61,251 nt of DNA from a virus. Of this stretch, positions 11,970-49,791 are shown piece by piece. The first letter of the stretch is position 1. The number at the start of each line of letters is the position of its first letter. The stretch lies in the IMG/VR virus record IMGVR_UViG_3300029951_000031. One strand, given 5' to 3'. The notes beneath the pieces are model-generated. The model ran no database searches and was not told the origin of the DNA. It saw only the letters and a program-made list of their open reading frames with translations. The translations under genes and the position numbers were made by a program.

Positions 11970-12133
11970 ACTATGCCGAGGCCAAGCGCATTTGCGCTGA
12001 AGCTTTCGCGCGCGCGGCCAAGCCGGGTCGGTCGCCGGATGACGTTCGGCAAGAGGTCGCGCTCGCCGCGGCTGTTGATAAAACGCTGATGAGCGCGTTA
12101 CTTATTGTTGCGTCGAAAGGGATGGATTCATGA
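11966..12133 (+). CDS. Hypothetical protein (55 aa)
   Basis: ATGA overlaps at both ends; hand-translated MNYAEAKRICAEAF... Confidence 0.45.
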   Translation: MNYAEAKRICAEAFARAAKPGRSPDDVRQEVALAAAVDKTLMSALLIVASKGMDS

Positions 12134-13566
12134 GCGATTGGCTCGACAAATGTCACTTCGGCGATTGCCGCGACACGATGCGCCGCATGATCGCTGATGG
12201 CGTGAAGGTGCAAACGATCGTTACGTCGCCGCCGTATTGGGGCCTTCGGGATTACGGCGTTGACGGGCAGATCGGCATGGAGCCGACGTTGCGCGAGTTC
12301 ATCGCCGGCATGGTCGAGGTTTTCAGGCTCTGTCGCGAAGTGCTCGCCGACGACGGAACGATGTGGGTCAACATGGGCGATTCGTATTTGGAAAACAAGC
12401 AGTTGGCGGTTCAGCCTCACCGGCTCGCGATTGCCCTGCAGGAGCCCTACTACGCCGGCAAGATCAAGAGGGAAGCCGACCGCGCGTGGTTGGGCGCGAT
12501 GATCGACGGGGAAGGCTGCTTTTTCATTCACAAGCGAAAGGCTGGATCCAGCGCACATTCTCGGTTCACCCGCGCCGATGGCACGGAAGCGAACTATGTT
12601 CGCAAGGTTGACACCTACGGGGTTGGGTTGGAGATATGCAACACACAGAAAGCGATCATCGATCGCGTTCAGGAGATTGCAGGGTTCGGCACCATGACCA
12701 CACAAAGCCCCGCGCAAAACAATCGGCGCAAGCAGACCATTTATCGGTGGAGGCTCGCCCCGAACGAGGTGAAGATTCTGGCTCGCGAGGTCTATCCGCA
12801 TCTGGTTGGGAAGCGCCAGCAAGCTCGGCTCATCTATAACTGCCCGTCAAGCGGAGAGGCTGGGGCGACTGCGCATCAAGCCATGATGGACTTGCACAAC
12901 GGCATTGCGACAGATGTGGACTACCCTGCGCCGCCCACTCTTTTTGAGCCCGGTTTCTACCTGCGGCAAGACATCGTATGGGCGAAAAAAAACCCGATGC
13001 CGGAGTCCATCAAGGACCGCTGCACGAAGTCGCACGAGTACTTGTTCTTCCTGAGCAAGCGGGAACAGTACTTCTCCAATTTTGAGGCTATTAGAGAGCC
13101 AGCATCATTCGGCGCGACACCATCGGGCGTCGGCTTTGGGCATGGATTTGATAGCCCCGAGCGGATCCAACAGCGCGGCCGCAGCAAGCGCGATAGTTTC
13201 AAGCGCGATAATAGCAAGCGAGCTTCCGCTATTCCCGGCCAATCTGTCGGCACACATCGGCCCGACCGAGTGGAAAGCGATTGGGACGTGCTGACACGCA
13301 ATAAGCGCAGTGTCTGGACGATACCTACTCAAGCATACGCTGCGGCGCACTTCGCCACATTCCCAGAAACCCTGGTCGAGCCGTGCGTAATGGCCGGCAG
13401 TCGGCCCGGCGACATCGTATTTGACCCCTTCTTTGGCAGCGGCACTACCGGATCAGTTGCGCAACGGCTCGGGCGCCACTGGATTGGTTGCGAGCTGAAT
13501 TCTGCTTACGAGCCGCTGCAGCGCGACAGATTGCGCCAGCCCGGCCTTGCATTGGAGATCGCATGA
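12130..13566 (+). CDS. N6-adenine/N4-cytosine DNA methyltransferase (beta class) with an inserted LAGLIDADG-like domain
   Basis: 478 aa. Motif IV TSPPYW, DIVWAKKNPMPES, and motif I DPFFGSGTTG. An insert of about 170 aa contains WLGAMIDGEGCFFI. Confidence 0.8.
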   Translation: MSDWLDKCHFGDCRDTMRRMIADGVKVQTIVTSPPYWGLRDYGVDGQIGMEPTLREFIAGMVEVFRLCREVLADDGTMWVNMGDSYLENKQLAVQPHRLAIALQEPYYAGKIKREADRAWLGAMIDGEGCFFIHKRKAGSSAHSRFTRADGTEANYVRKVDTYGVGLEICNTQKAIIDRVQEIAGFGTMTTQSPAQNNRRKQTIYRWRLAPNEVKILAREVYPHLVGKRQQARLIYNCPSSGEAGATAHQAMMDLHNGIATDVDYPAPPTLFEPGFYLRQDIVWAKKNPMPESIKDRCTKSHEYLFFLSKREQYFSNFEAIREPASFGATPSGVGFGHGFDSPERIQQRGRSKRDSFKRDNSKRASAIPGQSVGTHRPDRVESDWDVLTRNKRSVWTIPTQAYAAAHFATFPETLVEPCVMAGSRPGDIVFDPFFGSGTTGSVAQRLGRHWIGCELNSAYEPLQRDRLRQPGLALEIA

Positions 13567-21953: not shown

Positions 21954-22439
21954 ATGCGCGAAATACCTCTTACCCAAGGCAAATTTGCGCTAATCGACGA
22001 CGAAGACTTCAATATATTGTCGGTGTGGAAATGGCACCTCAATAACGGATACGCGAGCAGCACCGCGTCCGCAGCGGAGCAGCGATCGGCAGGATCCGGA
22101 AAAGTAATTCGGATTTCGATGCATCGTGTTTTAGCTGGGCTATCGTACGACGATGTTCGTGTTGTTGATCATATCGATGGCAATAAGCTCAACAATCAAC
22201 GCGCGAACCTCCGAGTCTGCTCGAACTCTCAGAACTTACAGAACCGCGGGGCGCAAGCCAATAATTCTTCCGGGTTTAAGGGTGTGACTTGGAATAAGCG
22301 CGATAGAAGGTGGCACGCGCGCATAAGTGTTGGGCCAAAGAATAAACACCTTGGCACATTCAGATCTGCGGCTGAAGCTGGCGAAGCATATCGAGCGGCA
22401 GCATTGCTGTTTCACGGCGAGTTCGCTTACCAACGCTAG
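21954..22439 (+). CDS. HNH endonuclease with an AP2 domain
   Basis: 161 aa. VVDHIDGNKLNNQRANLRV (HNH_3) plus GFKGVTWNKRDRRWHARI...FRSAAEAGEAYRAAA (AP2). Confidence 0.85.
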   Translation: MREIPLTQGKFALIDDEDFNILSVWKWHLNNGYASSTASAAEQRSAGSGKVIRISMHRVLAGLSYDDVRVVDHIDGNKLNNQRANLRVCSNSQNLQNRGAQANNSSGFKGVTWNKRDRRWHARISVGPKNKHLGTFRSAAEAGEAYRAAALLFHGEFAYQR

Positions 22440-23037: not shown

Positions 23038-23109
23038 TTGGGGTTGTGGCAACGGTAGCCGGCCGGTCTCCAAAACCGTGCAGTGCTGGTTCGAATCCAG
23101 CACCCCATG
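23038..23109 (+). tRNA. tRNA-Trp (anticodon CCA)
   Basis: Hand-folded cloverleaf: acceptor TTGGGGT/ACCCCAT, D stem TGGC/GCCG, anticodon arm CCGGT-CTCCAAA-ACCGT, T arm GCTGG-TTCGAAT-CCAGC. U:U at 1:72 and C:U at 27:43. Confidence 0.8.
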
Positions 23110-23234
23110 CCGAGGGCTTTCAAGGAAGCGCACAGTACTTGCGCCGACGACTTTGTGCGCAGTCGCATGTCGGCGCGTTTCCTTGAGAGCCGGCAACGAG
23201 GCAAAAGAATATGCCGGAATCCGCTAGATAGCTC

Positions 23235-23621
23235 ATGTACCGAGAAAAAATCCGTGGTGCCGGAATGATGACTTTGAGAAAGTCGCTCTGCGTCCATCGA
23301 GCATCAAAGCGCTATTTTCAGCGGATGCTGAAGAAGTGGATGGGCAATAATCGTTGTCCAGGACGCTTGAATGAAGCCGATTCAGACGTGACTAGCTGTA
23401 ATCGCATCGCAGAAACGCTAAGAATGGCACATTCTGCGGAAGTTGAAAAGATTTACGAACGGCTGGCTCAAAATTCATGCATGGCATCGGGGAAAACTTT
23501 TGGTACTGAGCGGAATTTTGCGTCAGTCGAAGCCGATGCCAGCCATGAATTTGAATCAAGTGAGTGGATCAGCGAGGGCAATTCTAATTCCCTCGCTGAG
23601 ATTGCCGTTTCCGCGCTTTAG
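23235..23621 (+). CDS. Doubtful ORF in an AT-richer patch (128 aa)
   Basis: ORF track only. Overlaps the 3' end of the convergent gene by 66 nt and has no clear SD. Confidence 0.3.
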   Translation: MYREKIRGAGMMTLRKSLCVHRASKRYFQRMLKKWMGNNRCPGRLNEADSDVTSCNRIAETLRMAHSAEVEKIYERLAQNSCMASGKTFGTERNFASVEADASHEFESSEWISEGNSNSLAEIAVSAL

Positions 23622-23900
23622 CGCTTTAGCGACGCTAGCGGCATCAAGATAGACATTCACACGCTTTCCCCCCGTCATTTCTGGGGGGCGTCCGAGTGAC
23701 GGCGGCGTTTCGCGGCGATCACGTGCCTCGCCGGGTCTTTCCCACTCGCCGCCCACTTTTTGGCGTGCGATGTATATCCAACGGGCATAATCAATCTTAT
23801 TGAGCGCTTTTTCGGCGGCAGCTGCGGTGCGATGCGTGCTGATGATGTCGCCGAACGCATCCGAGTTAGGGTCGAAGGTCACTACGGCAAATTTAGACAT
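23556..23900 (-). CDS. MSKFAV-family protein with an RHH-like C-terminus (unit A regulator)
   Basis: 114 aa. Paralog of 24491..24877. C-terminal KRVNVYLDAASVAKALKRGNGNLSEGIRIAL looks like a ribbon-helix-helix. GAGG SD. Confidence 0.65.
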   Translation of the reverse strand: MSKFAVVTFDPNSDAFGDIISTHRTAAAAEKALNKIDYARWIYIARQKVGGEWERPGEARDRRETPPSLGRPPEMTGGKRVNVYLDAASVAKALKRGNGNLSEGIRIALADPLT

Positions 23901-23909
23901 TTTTATGCC

Positions 23910-24122
23910 TCAGATGCTTTTTATGGCGTGAATTGCTTCTTCAACCGCGTCGAAGACATCCTCCCAGCTATTCACTTCGCCGTCTTCTCCCACAAACGAG
24001 ACTACATACCCACCTTCTTGTCTGGTGATTGCGGTATCGCCTGGACTGCATTGATTGGAAATAGTTTGGTCTTCATCCACGACAACGATTTCATGGCCTG
24101 CGTGTGCGATGCGAATGGTCAT
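23910..24122 (-). CDS. Hypothetical acidic protein (70 aa)
   Basis: ORF track; GGGGA SD; member of unit A. Confidence 0.55.
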   Translation of the reverse strand: MTIRIAHAGHEIVVVDEDQTISNQCSPGDTAITRQEGGYVVSFVGEDGEVNSWEDVFDAVEEAIHAIKSI

Positions 24123-24157
24123 TTTGATTCCCCAGTGGGAGTCCCGGAGGGCCGGTG

Positions 24158-24397
24158 TTATTCGTCGTTTTGATGGTCTGCGGCGATGCGGGTGGGTGCG
24201 CCGTACATGGCTTCTACGAACTTCGGCTTGGTCTTTTCCGCGGCGAGGCGAGTCAAGCGGCTACGAAGAAAACCAAAGCTTTGCTCAGATAGTGCCTCGA
24301 CTGCTGCTTCAGGAGTGGTGCTGCTGGTGAATTCAGCGCATTCGGTGAAGACCGCGAGCATCGGAAATTCGGCGGTAAGGGCTTGAAGTTTGGTCAT
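24158..24397 (-). CDS. Hypothetical protein (79 aa from the ATG at 24397)
   Basis: CCGGAGA SD. First gene after promoter PA. Confidence 0.55.
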   Translation of the reverse strand: MTKLQALTAEFPMLAVFTECAEFTSSTTPEAAVEALSEQSFGFLRSRLTRLAAEKTKPKFVEAMYGAPTRIAADHQNDE

Positions 24398-24442
24398 TTC
24401 GTCTCTCCGGTTTGTTGTGGACCTCGCTGCATCCATGACTCT

Positions 24443-24486
24443 ATTATATACACACAAAACAAGAATGCAAGATATTTGTGTGTATA
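24443..24486 (-). promoter_or_regulatory. Promoter PA with a 12-bp inverted-repeat operator
   Basis: Minus strand TTGCAT (24465..24470), a 16-nt spacer, then TATAAT (24443..24448). TATACACACAAA (24447..24458) pairs with TTTGTGTGTATA (24475..24486). Confidence 0.6.
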
Positions 24487-24490
24487 AATA

Positions 24491-24877
24491 TTAAAAATAT
24501 TTGCTTGCTGCTTCGAGCAGCGCGCGCGCAATGACCGCAGTAGCGCTAGCTGCATAGCCGGATCGCTGCAGAGTATCGAGTGCTGCGGCGGCGTCGGGTT
24601 GCAGTGAGCCGCCCGGAAGCCGGCGACCGCCACGCTCACGCAGAGCAGATTCGGATTTTCGGACGCGTTGAGCGGCAGTGAAAGCGGGTGGAGTTTCGCG
24701 GCGATCACGAGCATCAAGATAGCGCTCCCACTCACCATCCGGCTTGCGGTGGGCGACATAAGCGCCCGGCGCGTCAGGTTGTGCTTTGATGGCTGCGCCC
24801 TCGCTGCGATGCGTGCTCACAATGTAGCCGAGCTCGCTGCTGTTAAGGTCGGCGATGATGACGGCAAATTTGGACAT
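24491..24877 (-). CDS. MSKFAV-family protein with an RHH-like C-terminus (unit B regulator)
   Basis: 128 aa. Shares MSKFAV..D.NS...STHR...GEWER...ARDRRETPP with 23556..23900. AGGAGG SD. Confidence 0.65.
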   Translation of the reverse strand: MSKFAVIIADLNSSELGYIVSTHRSEGAAIKAQPDAPGAYVAHRKPDGEWERYLDARDRRETPPAFTAAQRVRKSESALRERGGRRLPGGSLQPDAAAALDTLQRSGYAASATAVIARALLEAASKYF

Positions 24878-24898
24878 GGTGCTTCCTCCTTAATAAGG

Positions 24899-25123
24899 TC
24901 AATCGCCGATTTCGTGAGAAATTTCCAACCATTCGCCGTCACGCAACTGGGATGCGGCATCCTGCGCAGCGTGAACGTCGCGCGCGTTCAGATCGGCGCG
25001 GTTCAGTCTTGTATATTCAGCATAGTCATCGGCATCGAATGCCTGACCAGCCTCAACATAAAACTTGAAACCGCTGAAATCGGGAGTAGTCGTGACAGTG
25101 GTGTTGATCGAGACGTTGTTCAT
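24899..25123 (-). CDS. Hypothetical acidic protein (74 aa)
   Basis: ORF track; CCGGAGA SD; first gene after promoter PB. Confidence 0.55.
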   Translation of the reverse strand: MNNVSINTTVTTTPDFSGFKFYVEAGQAFDADDYAEYTRLNRADLNARDVHAAQDAASQLRDGEWLEISHEIGD

Positions 25124-25167
25124 TTTAATCTCCGGTTGGTTGCGGGTTTTGCTGAACCCATGAATCT

Positions 25168-25195
25168 ATTATATACGTTACGCGCGTAACGTCAA
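25168..25195 (-). promoter_or_regulatory. Promoter PB with an 18-bp perfect palindrome operator
   Basis: Minus strand TTGACG (25190..25195), a 16-nt spacer, then TATAAT (25168..25173). ACGTTACGCGCGTAACGT (25175..25192) fills the spacer. Confidence 0.65.
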
Positions 25196-25219
25196 GATGT
25201 TTTTGCATTTAGAGGGCGC

Positions 25220-25477
25220 ATGATCAAATCACTTCCCGGCATGGTGCTTCCCGCCGCCGACATTGATTACACCGACCTGAAAAAATTCGGGCGCGTGACC
25301 ATCGATTACACGGCTAAGGGCGTTGAGATCGCCGTAGAGGGGTTTGAGTTCGCTGACGGCGGTAGTTGCCGGATTGTTTGCACAAAAGGCATGGCATGGG
25401 CGCGTGATGTGCTCGCTGCGGTCGTAGAGGCGGACCGCTTGATCCCCGGCGGTCACATGCGCGCCTCTGTAGATTAA
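25220..25477 (+). CDS. Hypothetical protein (85 aa)
   Basis: ORF track. GAGGG SD. Divergent from PB. Confidence 0.55.
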   Translation: MIKSLPGMVLPAADIDYTDLKKFGRVTIDYTAKGVEIAVEGFEFADGGSCRIVCTKGMAWARDVLAAVVEADRLIPGGHMRASVD

Positions 25478-25504
25478 GAAACCAAATCTCCTCCAGTTGG
25501 CGAG

Positions 25505-49359: not shown

Positions 49360-49791
49360 ATGATGGGACAAAAATTTGCAGCATATAACGCATCAGGAGT
49401 TGTTGTTGGCTACTACGATGACGTGGATAGTCCGGTACCATCCGGCGTGAGCGCGATTGCTATCAGCGATGCCGAATGGCAATCGGCTTATGCCGCACAA
49501 CCCCCCTACACAGTCAGCAATGGGGTTTTGCAATCCCCGAGCAGCGGCGATATCGCCGCTCACACAAACGCATTGGCCGTTGCCGCAATGCAGCAATCTG
49601 CTATTTCTGCATTGTTTGATACACGGGTAACATTAGAGCGAATCAACGAAGGTGTGTCACTCGGCACTTGCAGTTTCACGAACGCCGATGTGATTACATT
49701 CATGACGTATCGCAAAGCATTGCGCGAACTGTGCACTAATTCTACACTAACCACTTTGCCCATCAAACCACCATTCCCCGCTGGCACATAA
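49360..49791 (+). CDS. Tail fibre assembly chaperone
   Basis: 143 aa directly after the fibre gene. Confidence 0.55.
   Translation: MMGQKFAAYNASGVVVGYYDDVDSPVPSGVSAIAISDAEWQSAYAAQPPYTVSNGVLQSPSSGDIAAHTNALAVAAMQQSAISALFDTRVTLERINEGVSLGTCSFTNADVITFMTYRKALRELCTNSTLTTLPIKPPFPAGT

What the first reader, a model, noticed from the sequence alone, without database searches (positions are those of the whole stretch)
23556..25195. Two paralogous mini-operons have duplicated promoter/5'UTR, orthogonal palindromic operators and MSKFAV/RHH-like terminal genes
Both units are on the minus strand. Unit A (24397 down to 23556) has ORFs of 79, 70 and 114 aa. Unit B (25123 down to 24491) has ORFs of 74 and 128 aa. 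The terminal genes are paralogs (MSKFAV-x-x-x-D-x-NS...STHR...GEWER...ARDRRETPP), and their C-termini look like ribbon-helix-helix DNA binders. The -10 element plus about 50 nt of 5'UTR and the SD are duplicated at roughly 75-80% identity (24398..24448 against 25124..25173). The operators, however, differ completely. Unit B has a perfect 18-bp palindrome ACGTTACGCGCGTAACGT filling the -35/-10 spacer. Unit A has a 12-bp perfect inverted repeat (TATACACACAAA and TTTGTGTGTATA) bracketing the -35. The upstream small acidic ORFs are unrelated to each other and to anything I recognise. The units have tight autoregulation and small partner proteins, run in reverse orientation, and sit in the moron slot between the late regulator and the terminase genes. 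Together this suggests a diversifying family of TA-like, exclusion or anti-defence cassettes with matched regulator-operator pairs.
Basis: partly seen in the sequence, partly recalled or inferred. Interest (0 to 1): 0.7.

Follow-up and report, generated by a model that had tools for sequence, protein, structure and literature searches.

The report
Tandem anti-CRISPR operons with RHH autorepressors
A temperate phage carries two back-to-back, self-regulated anti-defence operons, one encoding an AcrIF7-type anti-CRISPR, and each is controlled by a previously undescribed ribbon-helix-helix-type repressor tail matched to its own palindromic operator and fused to a shared small domain of unknown function.

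Summary
In detail: five minus-strand ORFs in two units, a duplicated -10/5'UTR/SD core (81% over 48 nt), and two unrelated perfect palindromes in the promoters.

The interpretation needs sharpening.
- The terminal proteins are paralogous only in their N-terminal ~65 aa ("MSKFAV" domain, 54% identity). Their C-terminal DNA-binding tails belong to two different families.
- Each tail family travels with its own operator in other phages. DNA-only scans recover the cognate protein and protein-only scans recover the operator. Within the A family, β-strand variants KRxN[VI]Y and KKVNTY co-vary with CACA and CGCA operator arms (18:0 and 9:0).
- The 74-aa first gene of unit B is a clear AcrIF7 homolog (E 3e-14; TM 0.80-0.88, 46% identity). 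A second B-type operon elsewhere carries an AcrIF9-like gene.

These are therefore acr-aca-type anti-defence operons, not toxin-antitoxin modules. No toxin domain is present, the cargo is acidic, and it is swapped freely (about 27 cargo families).

Neither tail is detectably related to the recently described RHH regulator Aca14. The MSKFAV domain is rare, mostly standalone and fused to several different DNA-binding tails, so it may itself be an effector.

Verdict: new variant of a known kind. Functions are inferred, not tested.

The parts
25168..25195 (-). Unit B promoter: -35 TTGACG (25195-25190), perfect 18-bp palindromic operator ACGTTACGCGCGTAACGT (25192-25175), -10 TATAAT (25173-25168)
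   Evidence: The same TTGACGTTACGCGCGTAACGT promoter precedes an operon ending in a homologous standalone B-type protein in L023/L131. A degenerate version sits in the same position in L127.
25124..25167 (-). Unit B 5'UTR with the conserved AGATTCATGG start-site core and SD GGAG (25133-25130); 81% identical to the unit A UTR
   Evidence: (D1). No conserved RNA structure was found.
24899..25123 (-). acrIF7-family gene (74 aa, pI 4.3, net charge -9)
   Evidence: AF2 model pLDDT 92. Foldseek against AcrIF7 7jzx_J: E 3.9e-6, TM 0.80/0.88, rmsd 1.2 A, 46% identity. phmmer against PDB AcrIF7: E 3e-14, full length. tblastn hits acrIF7 of Pseudomonas phages H70, Ab31 and MPK9. Also matches phrog_26918.
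24680..24877 (-). Unit B regulator, N-terminal MSKFAV domain (residues 1-66)
   Evidence: The family has about 35 representatives among 1.84 billion proteins and most are standalone.
24491..24679 (-). Unit B regulator, C-terminal B-type DNA-binding tail (RHH-like, inferred), including the stop codon
   Evidence: 60% identity, E 1e-21, to the standalone 72-aa last gene of L023, and 68% to the 76-aa last gene of L127. No Pfam hit. The fold was not modelled.
24443..24486 (-). Unit A promoter: left operator arm TATACACACAAA (24486-24475), -35 TTGCAT (24470-24465), right arm TTTGTGTGTATA (24458-24447) overlapping -10 TATAAT (24448-24443). It begins 4 nt after the unit B stop codon.
   Evidence: (I12). 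The same operator architecture is found in L001, L004, L006, L041 and in 13 loci recovered by DNA pattern alone.
24398..24442 (-). Unit A 5'UTR with the AGAGTCATGG core and SD GGAG (24408-24405)
24158..24397 (-). Cargo gene, 79 aa (pI 5.1), lineage-restricted; candidate anti-defence protein
   Evidence: Found only in this phage and L001. 6 synonymous vs 2 non-synonymous codon differences against L001. No Pfam, PHROG or PDB hit.
23910..24122 (-). Cargo gene, 70 aa (pI 4.2, net charge -11); candidate anti-defence protein
   Evidence: Homologs in L001 (96%) and, at 54% identity and E 3e-24, in L127 under a B-type regulator. No Pfam or PDB hit.
23703..23900 (-). Unit A regulator, N-terminal MSKFAV domain
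   Evidence: AF2 pLDDT 90, topology beta-beta-alpha-beta-(beta)-alpha. No significant PDB or BFVD fold match with a known function.
23556..23672 (-). Unit A regulator, A-type ribbon-helix-helix module (GGKRVNVYLDA...GNLSEGIRIALA), including the stop codon
   Evidence: The AF2 model shows an extended segment plus two helices. Family members give weak CcdA/RHH_1 hits. At least 80 viral loci encode the module. Its beta-strand co-varies with the operator arms.
23471..23552 (.). Inverted repeat with 20-nt arms and a 42-nt loop immediately downstream of unit A; possible transcript end or processing hairpin (uncertain)
   Evidence: (I1). There is no clear U-tract and it was not called by the terminator scan.

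Best explanation
The region holds two adjacent, independently autoregulated anti-defence operons of the acr-aca type in a temperate lambdoid phage.

Each operon starts at a near-consensus sigma-70 promoter, which host RNA polymerase can use as soon as the DNA enters the cell (inferred). It first encodes small acidic effector proteins:
- Unit B: an AcrIF7-family protein. Its homologs block type I-F CRISPR-Cas by binding Cas8f as a DNA mimic.
- Unit A: two uncharacterised proteins of 79 and 70 aa.

The last gene of each operon encodes the regulator. Its C-terminal tail is RHH-like, modelled for A and inferred for B. The tail is proposed to dimerise and bind the inverted repeat in its own promoter, shutting the operon down once enough protein has accumulated (inferred from the operator positions and by analogy with Aca1, Aca2 and Aca14):
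- Unit A: arms flanking the -35 and overlapping the -10.
- Unit B: an 18-bp palindrome filling the -35/-10 spacer.

Because the two tails belong to different families with unrelated operators, the two circuits should be insulated from each other even though they share the promoter core, the 5'UTR and the N-terminal domain.

The shared MSKFAV N-domain is most likely a cargo-like effector domain that has been fused to the repressor, as in the bifunctional Acr-Aca proteins AcrIIA1, AcrIF24 and AcrIF25. It is less likely to be part of the DNA-binding machinery, because minimal RHH-only proteins use the same operators.

Shown here: the gene and promoter anatomy, the AcrIF7 homology, the regulator-operator co-occurrence and covariation, and the cargo and domain shuffling.
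Inferred: DNA binding, autorepression, early expression, anti-CRISPR activity, and any function of the 79-aa and 70-aa proteins and the MSKFAV domain.
For: 1. Unit B ORF1 is an AcrIF7 homolog.
- Foldseek: E 3.9e-6, TM 0.80/0.88, rmsd 1.2 A, 46% identity; the next non-Acr hit has E 2.
- phmmer: E 3e-14.
- tblastn hits phage acrIF7 genes.
- Y32, shown to be functionally important in AcrIF7 (PMC10155984), is conserved, as are D13 and D28 (alignment).

2. A-type tail and operator pairing.
- All 5 loci found by protein carry the TATACACA-TTGCA-TGTGTATA promoter despite different N-domains and cargo: window, L001, L004, L006, L041.
- Of 13 viral loci found by operator DNA alone, 9 encode the A-type module within 1.3 kb downstream (HMM E 1e-15 to 1e-24), and 2 encode HicB-RHH.
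- Among 80 loci found by protein alone, 27 unique loci have the operator upstream. Beta-strand class KRxN[VI]Y pairs with CACA arms 18:0 and KKVNTY with CGCA arms 9:0, Fisher p 2e-7.

3. B-type tail and operator pairing.
- L023 has the identical TTGACGTTACGCGCGTAACGT promoter and a standalone homologous last gene (60% identity, E 1e-21).
- L127 has a degenerate palindrome in the same spacer and a 68%-identical standalone tail.
- L023 also carries an AcrIF9-like gene, E 6e-4.

4. The natural hybrid L001 combines a B-like N-domain and UTR with an A-type tail, and it has the A operator. The operator therefore follows the tail.

5. Cargo.
- About 27 cargo families lie behind one regulator family. 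None has a Pfam hit and none has a toxin domain.
- The 70-aa cargo also occurs under a B-type regulator.

6. The AF2 model of the unit A regulator (pLDDT 90) shows an extended segment plus two helices at the C-terminus.

7. Literature.
- RHH-type Aca (Aca14) with an inverted repeat over the -10 and demonstrated autorepression; AcrIF25 with a dispensable RHH swapped for an HTH in a homolog (bioRxiv 10.64898/2026.07.27.740549).
- acrIF7 subclusters 2, 4 and 5 lack any Aca1-like neighbour (PMC10155984).
Against: - No experiment exists: DNA binding, repression and anti-CRISPR activity are all inferred.
- Unit A contains no homolog of any validated anti-defence protein. Its assignment rests on architecture and on its adjacency to unit B.
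- The window's AcrIF7 homolog is divergent. E18 is replaced by K and the central helix differs. According to PMC10155984, Janthinobacterium AcrIF7 homologs did not inhibit the Pseudomonas system.
- The B-type tail has no Pfam hit and was not modelled.
- About half of the A-type loci showed no recognisable operator with my patterns.
- 3 of 5 B-type protein loci showed no palindrome.
- Several B-palindrome promoters from metagenomes had no B-type gene on the short contigs available.
- The same A-type promoter-operator drives bona fide HicAB pairs, so the regulatory module is not specific to anti-defence cargo.
- The covariation count is not corrected for phylogenetic relatedness.
Confidence: 0.72

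Rival explanations
1. The units are type II toxin-antitoxin modules, HicAB-like with the toxin first. The small upstream proteins would be toxins, and the terminal protein an antitoxin whose N-domain neutralises the toxin while its RHH tail autoregulates.
For: - The identical A-type promoter-operator drives canonical HicA+HicB(RHH) pairs in L015/L017 (Pfam E 1e-24 and 5e-33).
- The gene order (effector first, DNA-binding partner last) and the two-domain regulator resemble HicB.
- Some A-type family members give weak CcdA hits.
Against: - None of the five window proteins or the 27 cargo representatives has a HicA or any other toxin domain.
- The cargo is strongly acidic, pI 4.2-5.1.
- The 74-aa protein is an AcrIF7 homolog.
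- The MSKFAV domain occurs with unrelated cargo (window A, window B, L041), and alone as the first gene in L002. It does not behave like a cognate neutralising domain.
- The 70-aa protein shows no significant similarity to HicB (BLAST E 0.12; no Pfam hit).
Confidence: 0.06
2. The units are lysogenic-conversion or superinfection-exclusion morons expressed from the prophage. They would benefit the host or exclude other phages rather than counter host defence during infection.
For: - The phage is temperate: integrase, CI-like S24 repressor.
- The cassettes are reverse-oriented, carry their own sigma-70 promoters, and sit in an accessory slot between the replication/Nin region and the terminase.
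- Related cassettes occupy equivalent slots or prophage ends.
Against: - AcrIF7 homology and an AcrIF9-like gene in a sister operon point to counter-defence.
- Tight autorepression matches the burst-then-shut-off logic described for acr operons.
- The two readings are not mutually exclusive, since Acrs are also expressed from prophages.
Confidence: 0.1
3. The architecture is acr-aca-like, but the MSKFAV N-domain is an integral regulatory part of the repressor, acting in tetramerisation or as a ligand or partner sensor, and not an independent effector.
For: - It is always N-terminal to a DNA-binding tail in the window, and it is conserved (54%) between two regulators that otherwise differ.
- Some RHH regulators carry accessory oligomerisation or sensor domains (general knowledge, for example NikR and Mnt).
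- Operator A has two arms with centres 28 bp apart, which could need bridging.
Against: - Minimal RHH-only proteins of 55-66 aa use the same two-arm operator.
- About two thirds of family members are standalone proteins of 57-87 aa with no DNA-binding tail.
- The domain is fused to at least four different tail types, including an HTH.
- The A-type tail is fused to at least 10 unrelated N-domains. This is the pattern of variable cargo, not of a conserved regulatory partner.
Confidence: 0.3

Closest known systems
acrIF7-aca1 operons of Pseudomonas aeruginosa phages (e.g. H70 g2-g9, JBD-type acr loci)
   Same: - An AcrIF7-family gene comes first and a small DNA-binding autorepressor gene last.
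- The operon has a strong promoter with inverted-repeat operators overlapping the -35/-10.
- It occupies an accessory position in a temperate phage.
   Different: - The regulator here is not an HTH/lambda-repressor-like Aca1. It is an RHH-like tail fused to an extra N-terminal domain.
- The Acr is only 46-48% identical to the Pseudomonas proteins.
- Two such operons sit in tandem with different operators.
Aca14, the RHH-type anti-CRISPR-associated repressor of Pasteurella multocida (bioRxiv 10.64898/2026.07.27.740549)
   Same: - An RHH-class regulator in the aca position.
- An AT-rich inverted repeat overlapping the -10.
- Highly variable anti-defence cargo.
- Its half-sites contain TGTATA/TATACA, as do the A-type arms (possibly coincidence).
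   Different: - No detectable sequence or profile similarity to either window tail (BLAST not significant; hhalign prob <=1%).
- Aca14 matches Pfam RHH_1 and the window tails do not.
- Aca14's operator is one contiguous 20-bp palindrome. Unit A has two arms 16 bp apart around the -35, and unit B has a GC-rich 18-bp palindrome.
- Aca14 has no N-terminal extra domain.
Bifunctional Acr-Aca fusion proteins (AcrIIA1, AcrIF24, AcrIF25)
   Same: A small effector domain is fused to a DNA-binding autoregulatory domain that differs between homologs (RHH in AcrIF25, HTH in a relative). The MSKFAV domain is likewise found alone or fused to A-type RHH, B-type tail, other RHH-like tails or an HTH.
   Different: - No anti-defence activity is known for the MSKFAV domain.
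- It has no sequence or fold similarity to those proteins.
- Here the fusion protein sits downstream of separate Acr-like genes rather than being the only effector.
HicAB type II toxin-antitoxin modules with an RHH-type HicB
   Same: - The same TATACACA/TTGCA/TGTGTATA promoter-operator in L015/L017.
- An RHH beta-strand of similar pattern (ERINITL vs KRVNVYL).
- The regulator is the last gene, with an N-terminal partner domain plus a C-terminal RHH.
   Different: - No HicA and no HicB_lk_antitox domain in the window.
- The cargo is acidic and includes an Acr homolog.
- The profile comparison of the RHH modules is not significant.

Membership tests
AcrIF7 anti-CRISPR family (unit B, 74-aa protein) | Significant full-length sequence similarity to validated AcrIF7 | tested here: met
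   phmmer against PDB 6m3n/7jzx: E 3e-14 and 6e-14 over residues 6-71. tblastn against acrIF7 of phages H70, Ab31 and MPK9: 48% identity.
AcrIF7 anti-CRISPR family (unit B, 74-aa protein) | AcrIF7 fold | tested here: met
   AF2 model pLDDT 92. Foldseek TM 0.80/0.88, rmsd 1.2 A to 7jzx_J. No other fold scores better than E 2.
AcrIF7 anti-CRISPR family (unit B, 74-aa protein) | Conservation of functionally important residues (Y32; acidic Cas8f-binding surface; E18, V40, V45 per PMC10155984) | tested here: inconclusive
   Y32, D13 and D28 equivalents are conserved and the net charge is -9. E18 is replaced by K, and the helix holding V40 and V45 is divergent.
AcrIF7 anti-CRISPR family (unit B, 74-aa protein) | Inhibition of a type I-F CRISPR-Cas system | not testable with these tools
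   Needs plaque or transformation assays against the natural host's I-F system.
acr-aca operon | An Acr homolog and a downstream DNA-binding protein gene in one operon | tested here: met
   Unit B: acrIF7-like gene, 21-nt gap, then the regulator gene on the same strand with a single promoter. The DNA-binding nature of the tail is inferred from its conserved pairing with the operator.
acr-aca operon | Inverted-repeat operator within the operon promoter, conserved with the regulator across elements | tested here: met
acr-aca operon | Autorepression by the Aca protein | not testable with these tools
   Needs EMSA and reporter assays.
Aca14 (RHH Aca) family | Sequence or profile homology to Aca14 (WP_005725436.1) | tested here: not met
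   BLASTP E 5-17. hhalign of the A-type profile against Aca14: prob 0.9%, E 0.06. Pfam RHH_1 matches Aca14 (6e-5) but neither window tail.
Aca14 (RHH Aca) family | Cognate operator of type TGTATATG-N4-CATATACA over the -10 | tested here: not met
   The window operators are TATACACACAAA-N16-TTTGTGTGTATA and ACGTTACGCGCGTAACGT.
Ribbon-helix-helix superfamily (unit A tail) | Beta-strand, helix, helix topology with a G-x-S/T/N helix-2 cap | tested here: met
   The AF2 monomer has an extended segment at 80-86 and helices at 87-96 and 101-110, pLDDT >90. The GN(V/L)SEG motif is conserved. Family members give weak CcdA/RHH_1 hits. The dimeric sheet was not modelled.
Ribbon-helix-helix superfamily (unit B tail) | Beta-strand, helix, helix topology | not tested
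The only support is a sequence pattern (RRLPGGSL / PDAAAALDTLQRSG / YAASATAVIARALLEAA) and an in-register but non-significant hhalign match.
HicAB toxin-antitoxin | HicA toxin domain (PF07927) in the partner gene | tested here: not met
   No Pfam hit for any of the five ORFs at E<=1. The positive control, L015 HicA, scores E 1.7e-24.
HicAB toxin-antitoxin | HicB_lk_antitox N-domain in the regulator or in the 70-aa protein | tested here: not met
   No Pfam hit. BLAST of the 70-aa protein against L015 HicB: E 0.12. The fold of the 70-aa protein was not modelled.

The most novel reading that the evidence does not exclude
The A-type (GGKRVNVYLDA...GNVSEGIRIAL) and B-type (RRLPGG...AAAALxxLQxxGYAxS) tails are two new, widespread families of Aca-like autorepressors with readable protein-DNA specificity codes (KRxN[VI]Y with CACA, KKVNTY with CGCA). 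The MSKFAV domain, and the other ten or more unrelated N-domains fused to the A-type tail, are new anti-defence effectors built into their own repressors. Under this reading, the operators and tails would serve as guilt-by-association handles, exposing dozens of uncharacterised anti-defence proteins in phages of Beta- and Gammaproteobacteria. These include the 79-aa and 70-aa proteins here and about 27 cargo families elsewhere.
Probability: 0.4. Interest if true: 0.75.

Novelty: new variant of a known kind. Interest (0 to 1): 0.6.

Why it matters
- Anti-CRISPR and other anti-defence genes are mostly found by association with their conserved regulators. Almost all known Aca proteins are helix-turn-helix proteins, and an RHH-type Aca (Aca14) was described only in 2026.
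- This locus adds two further regulator families unrelated in sequence to Aca14. Each has a defined operator, and one is present in at least 80 viral contigs with very diverse, unannotated cargo.
- It fills a stated gap: AcrIF7 homologs outside the main Pseudomonas clusters had no identifiable Aca.
- The covariation between β-strand and operator gives a natural specificity-switch series for RHH-DNA recognition.
- The tandem arrangement, with a shared promoter core and effector domain but swapped operator and tail, is a clean natural example of how orthogonal autoregulatory circuits arise by module exchange.
- The same promoter-operator-RHH module also drives HicAB toxin-antitoxin pairs, which links antitoxin and Aca regulators evolutionarily.

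Tried and rejected
1. DNA similarity of the 2.2-kb region to 50,697 phage records: no match.
2. Pfam and PHROGs on the five ORFs: only phrog_26918 (unknown function) for the 74-aa protein.
3. A conserved RNA structure in the duplicated 5'UTR, by analogy with Aca2-type RNA control. Single-sequence folds give z-scores near 0 (the fifth sequence in that call was mistyped and is disregarded). RNAalifold on 12 related UTRs predicts no pairs. Rejected.
4. MSKFAV domain as AcrIF9-like. AcrIF9 was the top Foldseek hit, but at E 0.58. hhalign against the AcrIF9-like L023 protein gives prob 0.09, and a profile search of PDB sequences found nothing. Rejected as unsupported.
5. The 70-aa protein as a HicB N-domain, an impression from reading the sequence. 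No Pfam hit, and BLAST E 0.12. Unsupported; the fold was not modelled.
6. Membership of either tail in the Aca14 family: not met.
7. Genome-contig scan for the MSKFAV domain: the single hit was a false positive inside an aminotransferase gene.
8. Metagenome scan for the B promoter. It returned 5 loci: one duplicate of L023, three short contigs with the palindrome in a promoter-like position but no B-type gene in the sequence available, and one non-phage-like context. Inconclusive.
9. Additional copies of either operator elsewhere in the window, which would indicate regulation of a neighbouring operon: none.
10. Known Acrs or known families among the cargo and N-domains of related loci. PDB sequence searches on concatenated proteins gave only an AcrIF25-RHH-like stretch (L020) and AcrIF9-like (L023). 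The Pfam batch search gave nothing.
11. Window-scale chance estimate for the palindromes: not individually rare. The argument therefore rests on position and conservation.

Full report
**1. Observation.**

Reading the minus strand of 23300-25500 and listing ORFs confirms the two units exactly as described:
- Unit B: 25123-24899 (74 aa) and 24877-24491 (128 aa).
- Unit A: 24397-24158 (79 aa), 24122-23910 (70 aa) and 23900-23556 (114 aa).

An independent gene caller on 24 public contigs of the same ~61-kb phage makes the same five calls.

The duplicated segment is 24404-24451 vs 25129-25176, 81% identical over 48 nt. It runs from the -10 through a conserved TCATGG start-site core to the SD.

- Unit B's promoter is TTGACG-16-TATAAT, 11/12 to consensus. 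The perfect 18-bp palindrome ACGTTACGCGCGTAACGT lies at 25192-25175.
- Unit A has a perfect 12-nt inverted repeat, 24486-24475 / 24458-24447. It brackets TTGCAT and runs into TATAAT.

Simulations show that such palindromes are not individually rare in 61 kb (67/200 and 31/200). However, each occurs once in the window, and exactly in one of the two homologous promoters.

**2. The terminal proteins are chimeras.**

- They share only the N-terminal ~65 residues (54% identity, E 6e-20).
- A search of 5.8 billion proteins found nine clusters.
- Their alignment shows that unit A's C-terminal module, GRPxEMxGGKRVNVYLDAxSLxxAxxLGNGNVSEGIRIALA, is fused to unrelated N-termini in other proteins. Unit B's C-terminus is different.
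- An exhaustive profile search for the N-domain found about 35 representatives among 1.84 billion proteins. Most are standalone proteins of 57-87 aa.
- Some are fused to the A-type module, to other RHH-like tails or to an HTH.
- AlphaFold2 on the unit A protein (pLDDT 90) gives a β-β-α-β-(β)-α N-domain, a linker, and then an extended segment plus two helices, which is the RHH topology in a monomer.
- Neither PDB nor BFVD has a significant characterised fold match for the N-domain. It is absent from Pfam and PHROGs.

**3. Each tail travels with its operator.**

A-type:
- L001 is a natural hybrid, with a B-like N-domain and UTR, an A-type tail and the same 79/70-aa cargo. It carries the A operator.
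- L004 (a Chitinilyticum prophage), L006 and L041 have unrelated N-domains or cargo, and again the TATACACA-TTGCA-TGTGTATA(TAAT) promoter.
- A blind scan of IMG/VR for the operator DNA alone gave 13 loci. Nine encode the A-type module as the last gene within 1.3 kb, and two encode HicA plus an RHH-type HicB.
In 27 unique loci an operator was recognised upstream.
- Proteins with β-strand KRxN[VI]Y have CACA/TGTG arms (18:0). Those with KKVNTY have CGCA/TGCG arms (9:0). Fisher p is 2e-7, uncorrected for relatedness.
- A concerted change in both arms together with the DNA-reading strand is strong comparative evidence for direct, cognate binding.

B-type:
- The exact palindrome with its -35 recurs in L023. 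There a multi-gene operon ends in a standalone 72-aa protein that is 60% identical to unit B's tail (E 1e-21).
- L127 has a 68%-identical standalone tail. A degenerate palindrome lies in the same spacer, followed by unit A's AGAGTCATGGATGCAGC core.
- The support for B is thinner. Three high-GC loci with related tails showed no palindrome, and the metagenome hits were on short contigs.

**4. What the cargo is.**

- The 74-aa family has 19 clusters, none of them named.
- Its model (pLDDT 92) matches AcrIF7 at TM 0.80/0.88, rmsd 1.2 Å and 46% identity, with nothing else better than E 2.
- Sequence searches agree: E 3e-14 against PDB AcrIF7, and tblastn hits on acrIF7 genes of Pseudomonas phages.
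- Y32 and the acidic character are conserved. E18 and the central helix are not, so the target specificity is open.
- Figueroa et al. (PMC10155984) report that AcrIF7 subclusters 2, 4 and 5 (subcluster 5 is the Janthinobacterium-associated one) have no Aca1-like neighbour. Unit B's terminal gene is a candidate for that missing regulator class.
- L023's B-type operon contains an AcrIF9-like gene (E 6e-4, the only PDB hit).
- Unit A's 79-aa and 70-aa proteins have no known relatives.
- The 79-aa ORF shows 6 synonymous to 2 non-synonymous codon differences against L001.
- The 70-aa protein has a 54%-identical homolog in L127 under a B-type regulator.
- Across the related loci, about 27 cargo families sit behind the A-type regulator. 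None has a Pfam hit and none has a toxin domain.
- The A-type tail itself is fused to at least 10 unrelated N-domains, none with a Pfam or PDB sequence match.

**5. Mechanism proposed.**

The phage is temperate. It has an integrase, a CI-like S24 repressor, DnaB and NinG. The cassettes lie reverse-oriented between the Nin/HNH/tRNA-Trp region and TerS/TerL/portal.

The most likely reading is two acr-aca-type operons:
- Strong host-type promoters fire on entry.
- Small acidic effectors are made first.
- The last protein's RHH-type tail then binds the inverted repeat over the -35/-10 and shuts the promoter.

This logic has been demonstrated for Aca1 and Aca2, and for the RHH protein Aca14 (bioRxiv 10.64898/2026.07.27.740549).

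Because the tails and operators differ, the two circuits should not cross-talk. Unit B's stop codon is only 4 nt from unit A's left arm, with no terminator between them. Read-through from P_B into unit A, possibly blocked by operator-bound regulator A, is therefore plausible but untested.

The MSKFAV domain behaves like cargo. It is mostly standalone, it is fused to several tail types, it does not co-vary with cargo, and RHH-only proteins use the same operators without it. I therefore favour a built-in effector, as described for AcrIF25, AcrIIA1 and AcrIF24, over a regulatory accessory domain. No function can be assigned.

**6. Comparison and membership.**

- The 74-aa protein is an AcrIF7-family member by sequence and fold. 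Its activity is untested.
- The operons meet the computable criteria for acr-aca loci.
- Neither tail is an Aca14 family member. BLAST and hhalign are not significant, Pfam RHH_1 hits Aca14 but not the window tails, and the operators differ.
- A-type, B-type and HicB RHH modules are not significantly similar to one another at profile level. The best local alignments do fall in register on the β-strand and helix 1.
- The TA reading fails on its defining features.

**7. Verdict.**

The main new points are:
- the AcrIF7 identity of unit B's cargo;
- the recognition that the orthogonal operators are explained by non-homologous tails grafted onto a shared N-domain and promoter core;
- the existence of two widespread, undescribed Aca-like regulator families with a visible specificity code.

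All functional statements remain inferences until binding, repression and anti-defence assays are done.

Noticed in passing
window 23038-23111 (+) and 21954-22439 (+): A tRNA-Trp (CCA) gene and an HNH_3+AP2 homing-endonuclease-like ORF lie just upstream of the cassettes. The HNH gene was not among the genes called on the public contig L042 of the same phage.
   Followed up: partly
window 23471-23490 / 23533-23552: An inverted repeat with 20-nt arms (90% complementary, 42-nt loop) begins 4 nt after the unit A stop codon. It has no clear U-tract and overlaps an uncalled + strand ORF (23235-23621). It may mark a transcript end or a processing site.
   Followed up: no
window 25220-25477 (+): An 85-aa ORF starts 25 nt from unit B's -35 and runs divergently. 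An independent gene caller also calls it, and it has no family or PDB match. The B operator could in principle also affect its expression.
   Followed up: partly
window 49543-49560: A second perfect 18-bp palindrome, AGCGGCGATATCGCCGCT, lies inside ORF 49360-49791 in the tail-gene region.
   Followed up: no
L015 and L017 (IMG/VR contigs), operator at about 6707 and 10120 on the minus strand: Canonical HicA (60 aa) and HicB (137 aa, RHH tail ERINITLP) toxin-antitoxin pairs are driven by the same TATACACA/TTGCA/TGTGTATA promoter-operator used by the A-type anti-defence-like operons.
   Followed up: partly
L002 5900-6410: A standalone MSKFAV-domain gene (64 aa) is the first gene of an operon with a 44-aa gene and a DUF932 gene. 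The genes are separated by a duplicated intergenic segment (AATCAATTTAATTTCACTCACTCACTC...CCAAAAGGAAAAATCATG). The operon sits beside NUMOD4/HNH and terminase genes, as in the window.
   Followed up: no
window 12130-13566 (+): An orphan N6/N4 DNA methylase (Pfam E 6e-47) lies in the early region. It is another possible counter-restriction function of this phage.
   Followed up: no
L023/L131 (B-type operon) and L020 (A-type operon): L023's 93-aa cargo has an AcrIF9-like motif (E 6e-4). L020's 148-aa cargo has an N-terminus resembling the RHH part of AcrIF25 (E 3e-4), followed by a weak ArsR/HlyU-like stretch.
   Followed up: partly
L055, L056, L060, L063, L064, L067-L069, L077, L081, L088: A sub-family of A-type tails with β-strand KKVNTY uses operators in which both arms carry CGCA/TGCG instead of CACA/TGTG. 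This is a natural specificity switch.
   Followed up: yes
L027 378-1097: An AcrIF7-family homolog (P0054) sits next to a Lar restriction-alleviation gene. In L029-31 and L001 the family is the first gene of an operon divergent from a small HTH gene. The family is therefore regulated in several different ways.
   Followed up: no
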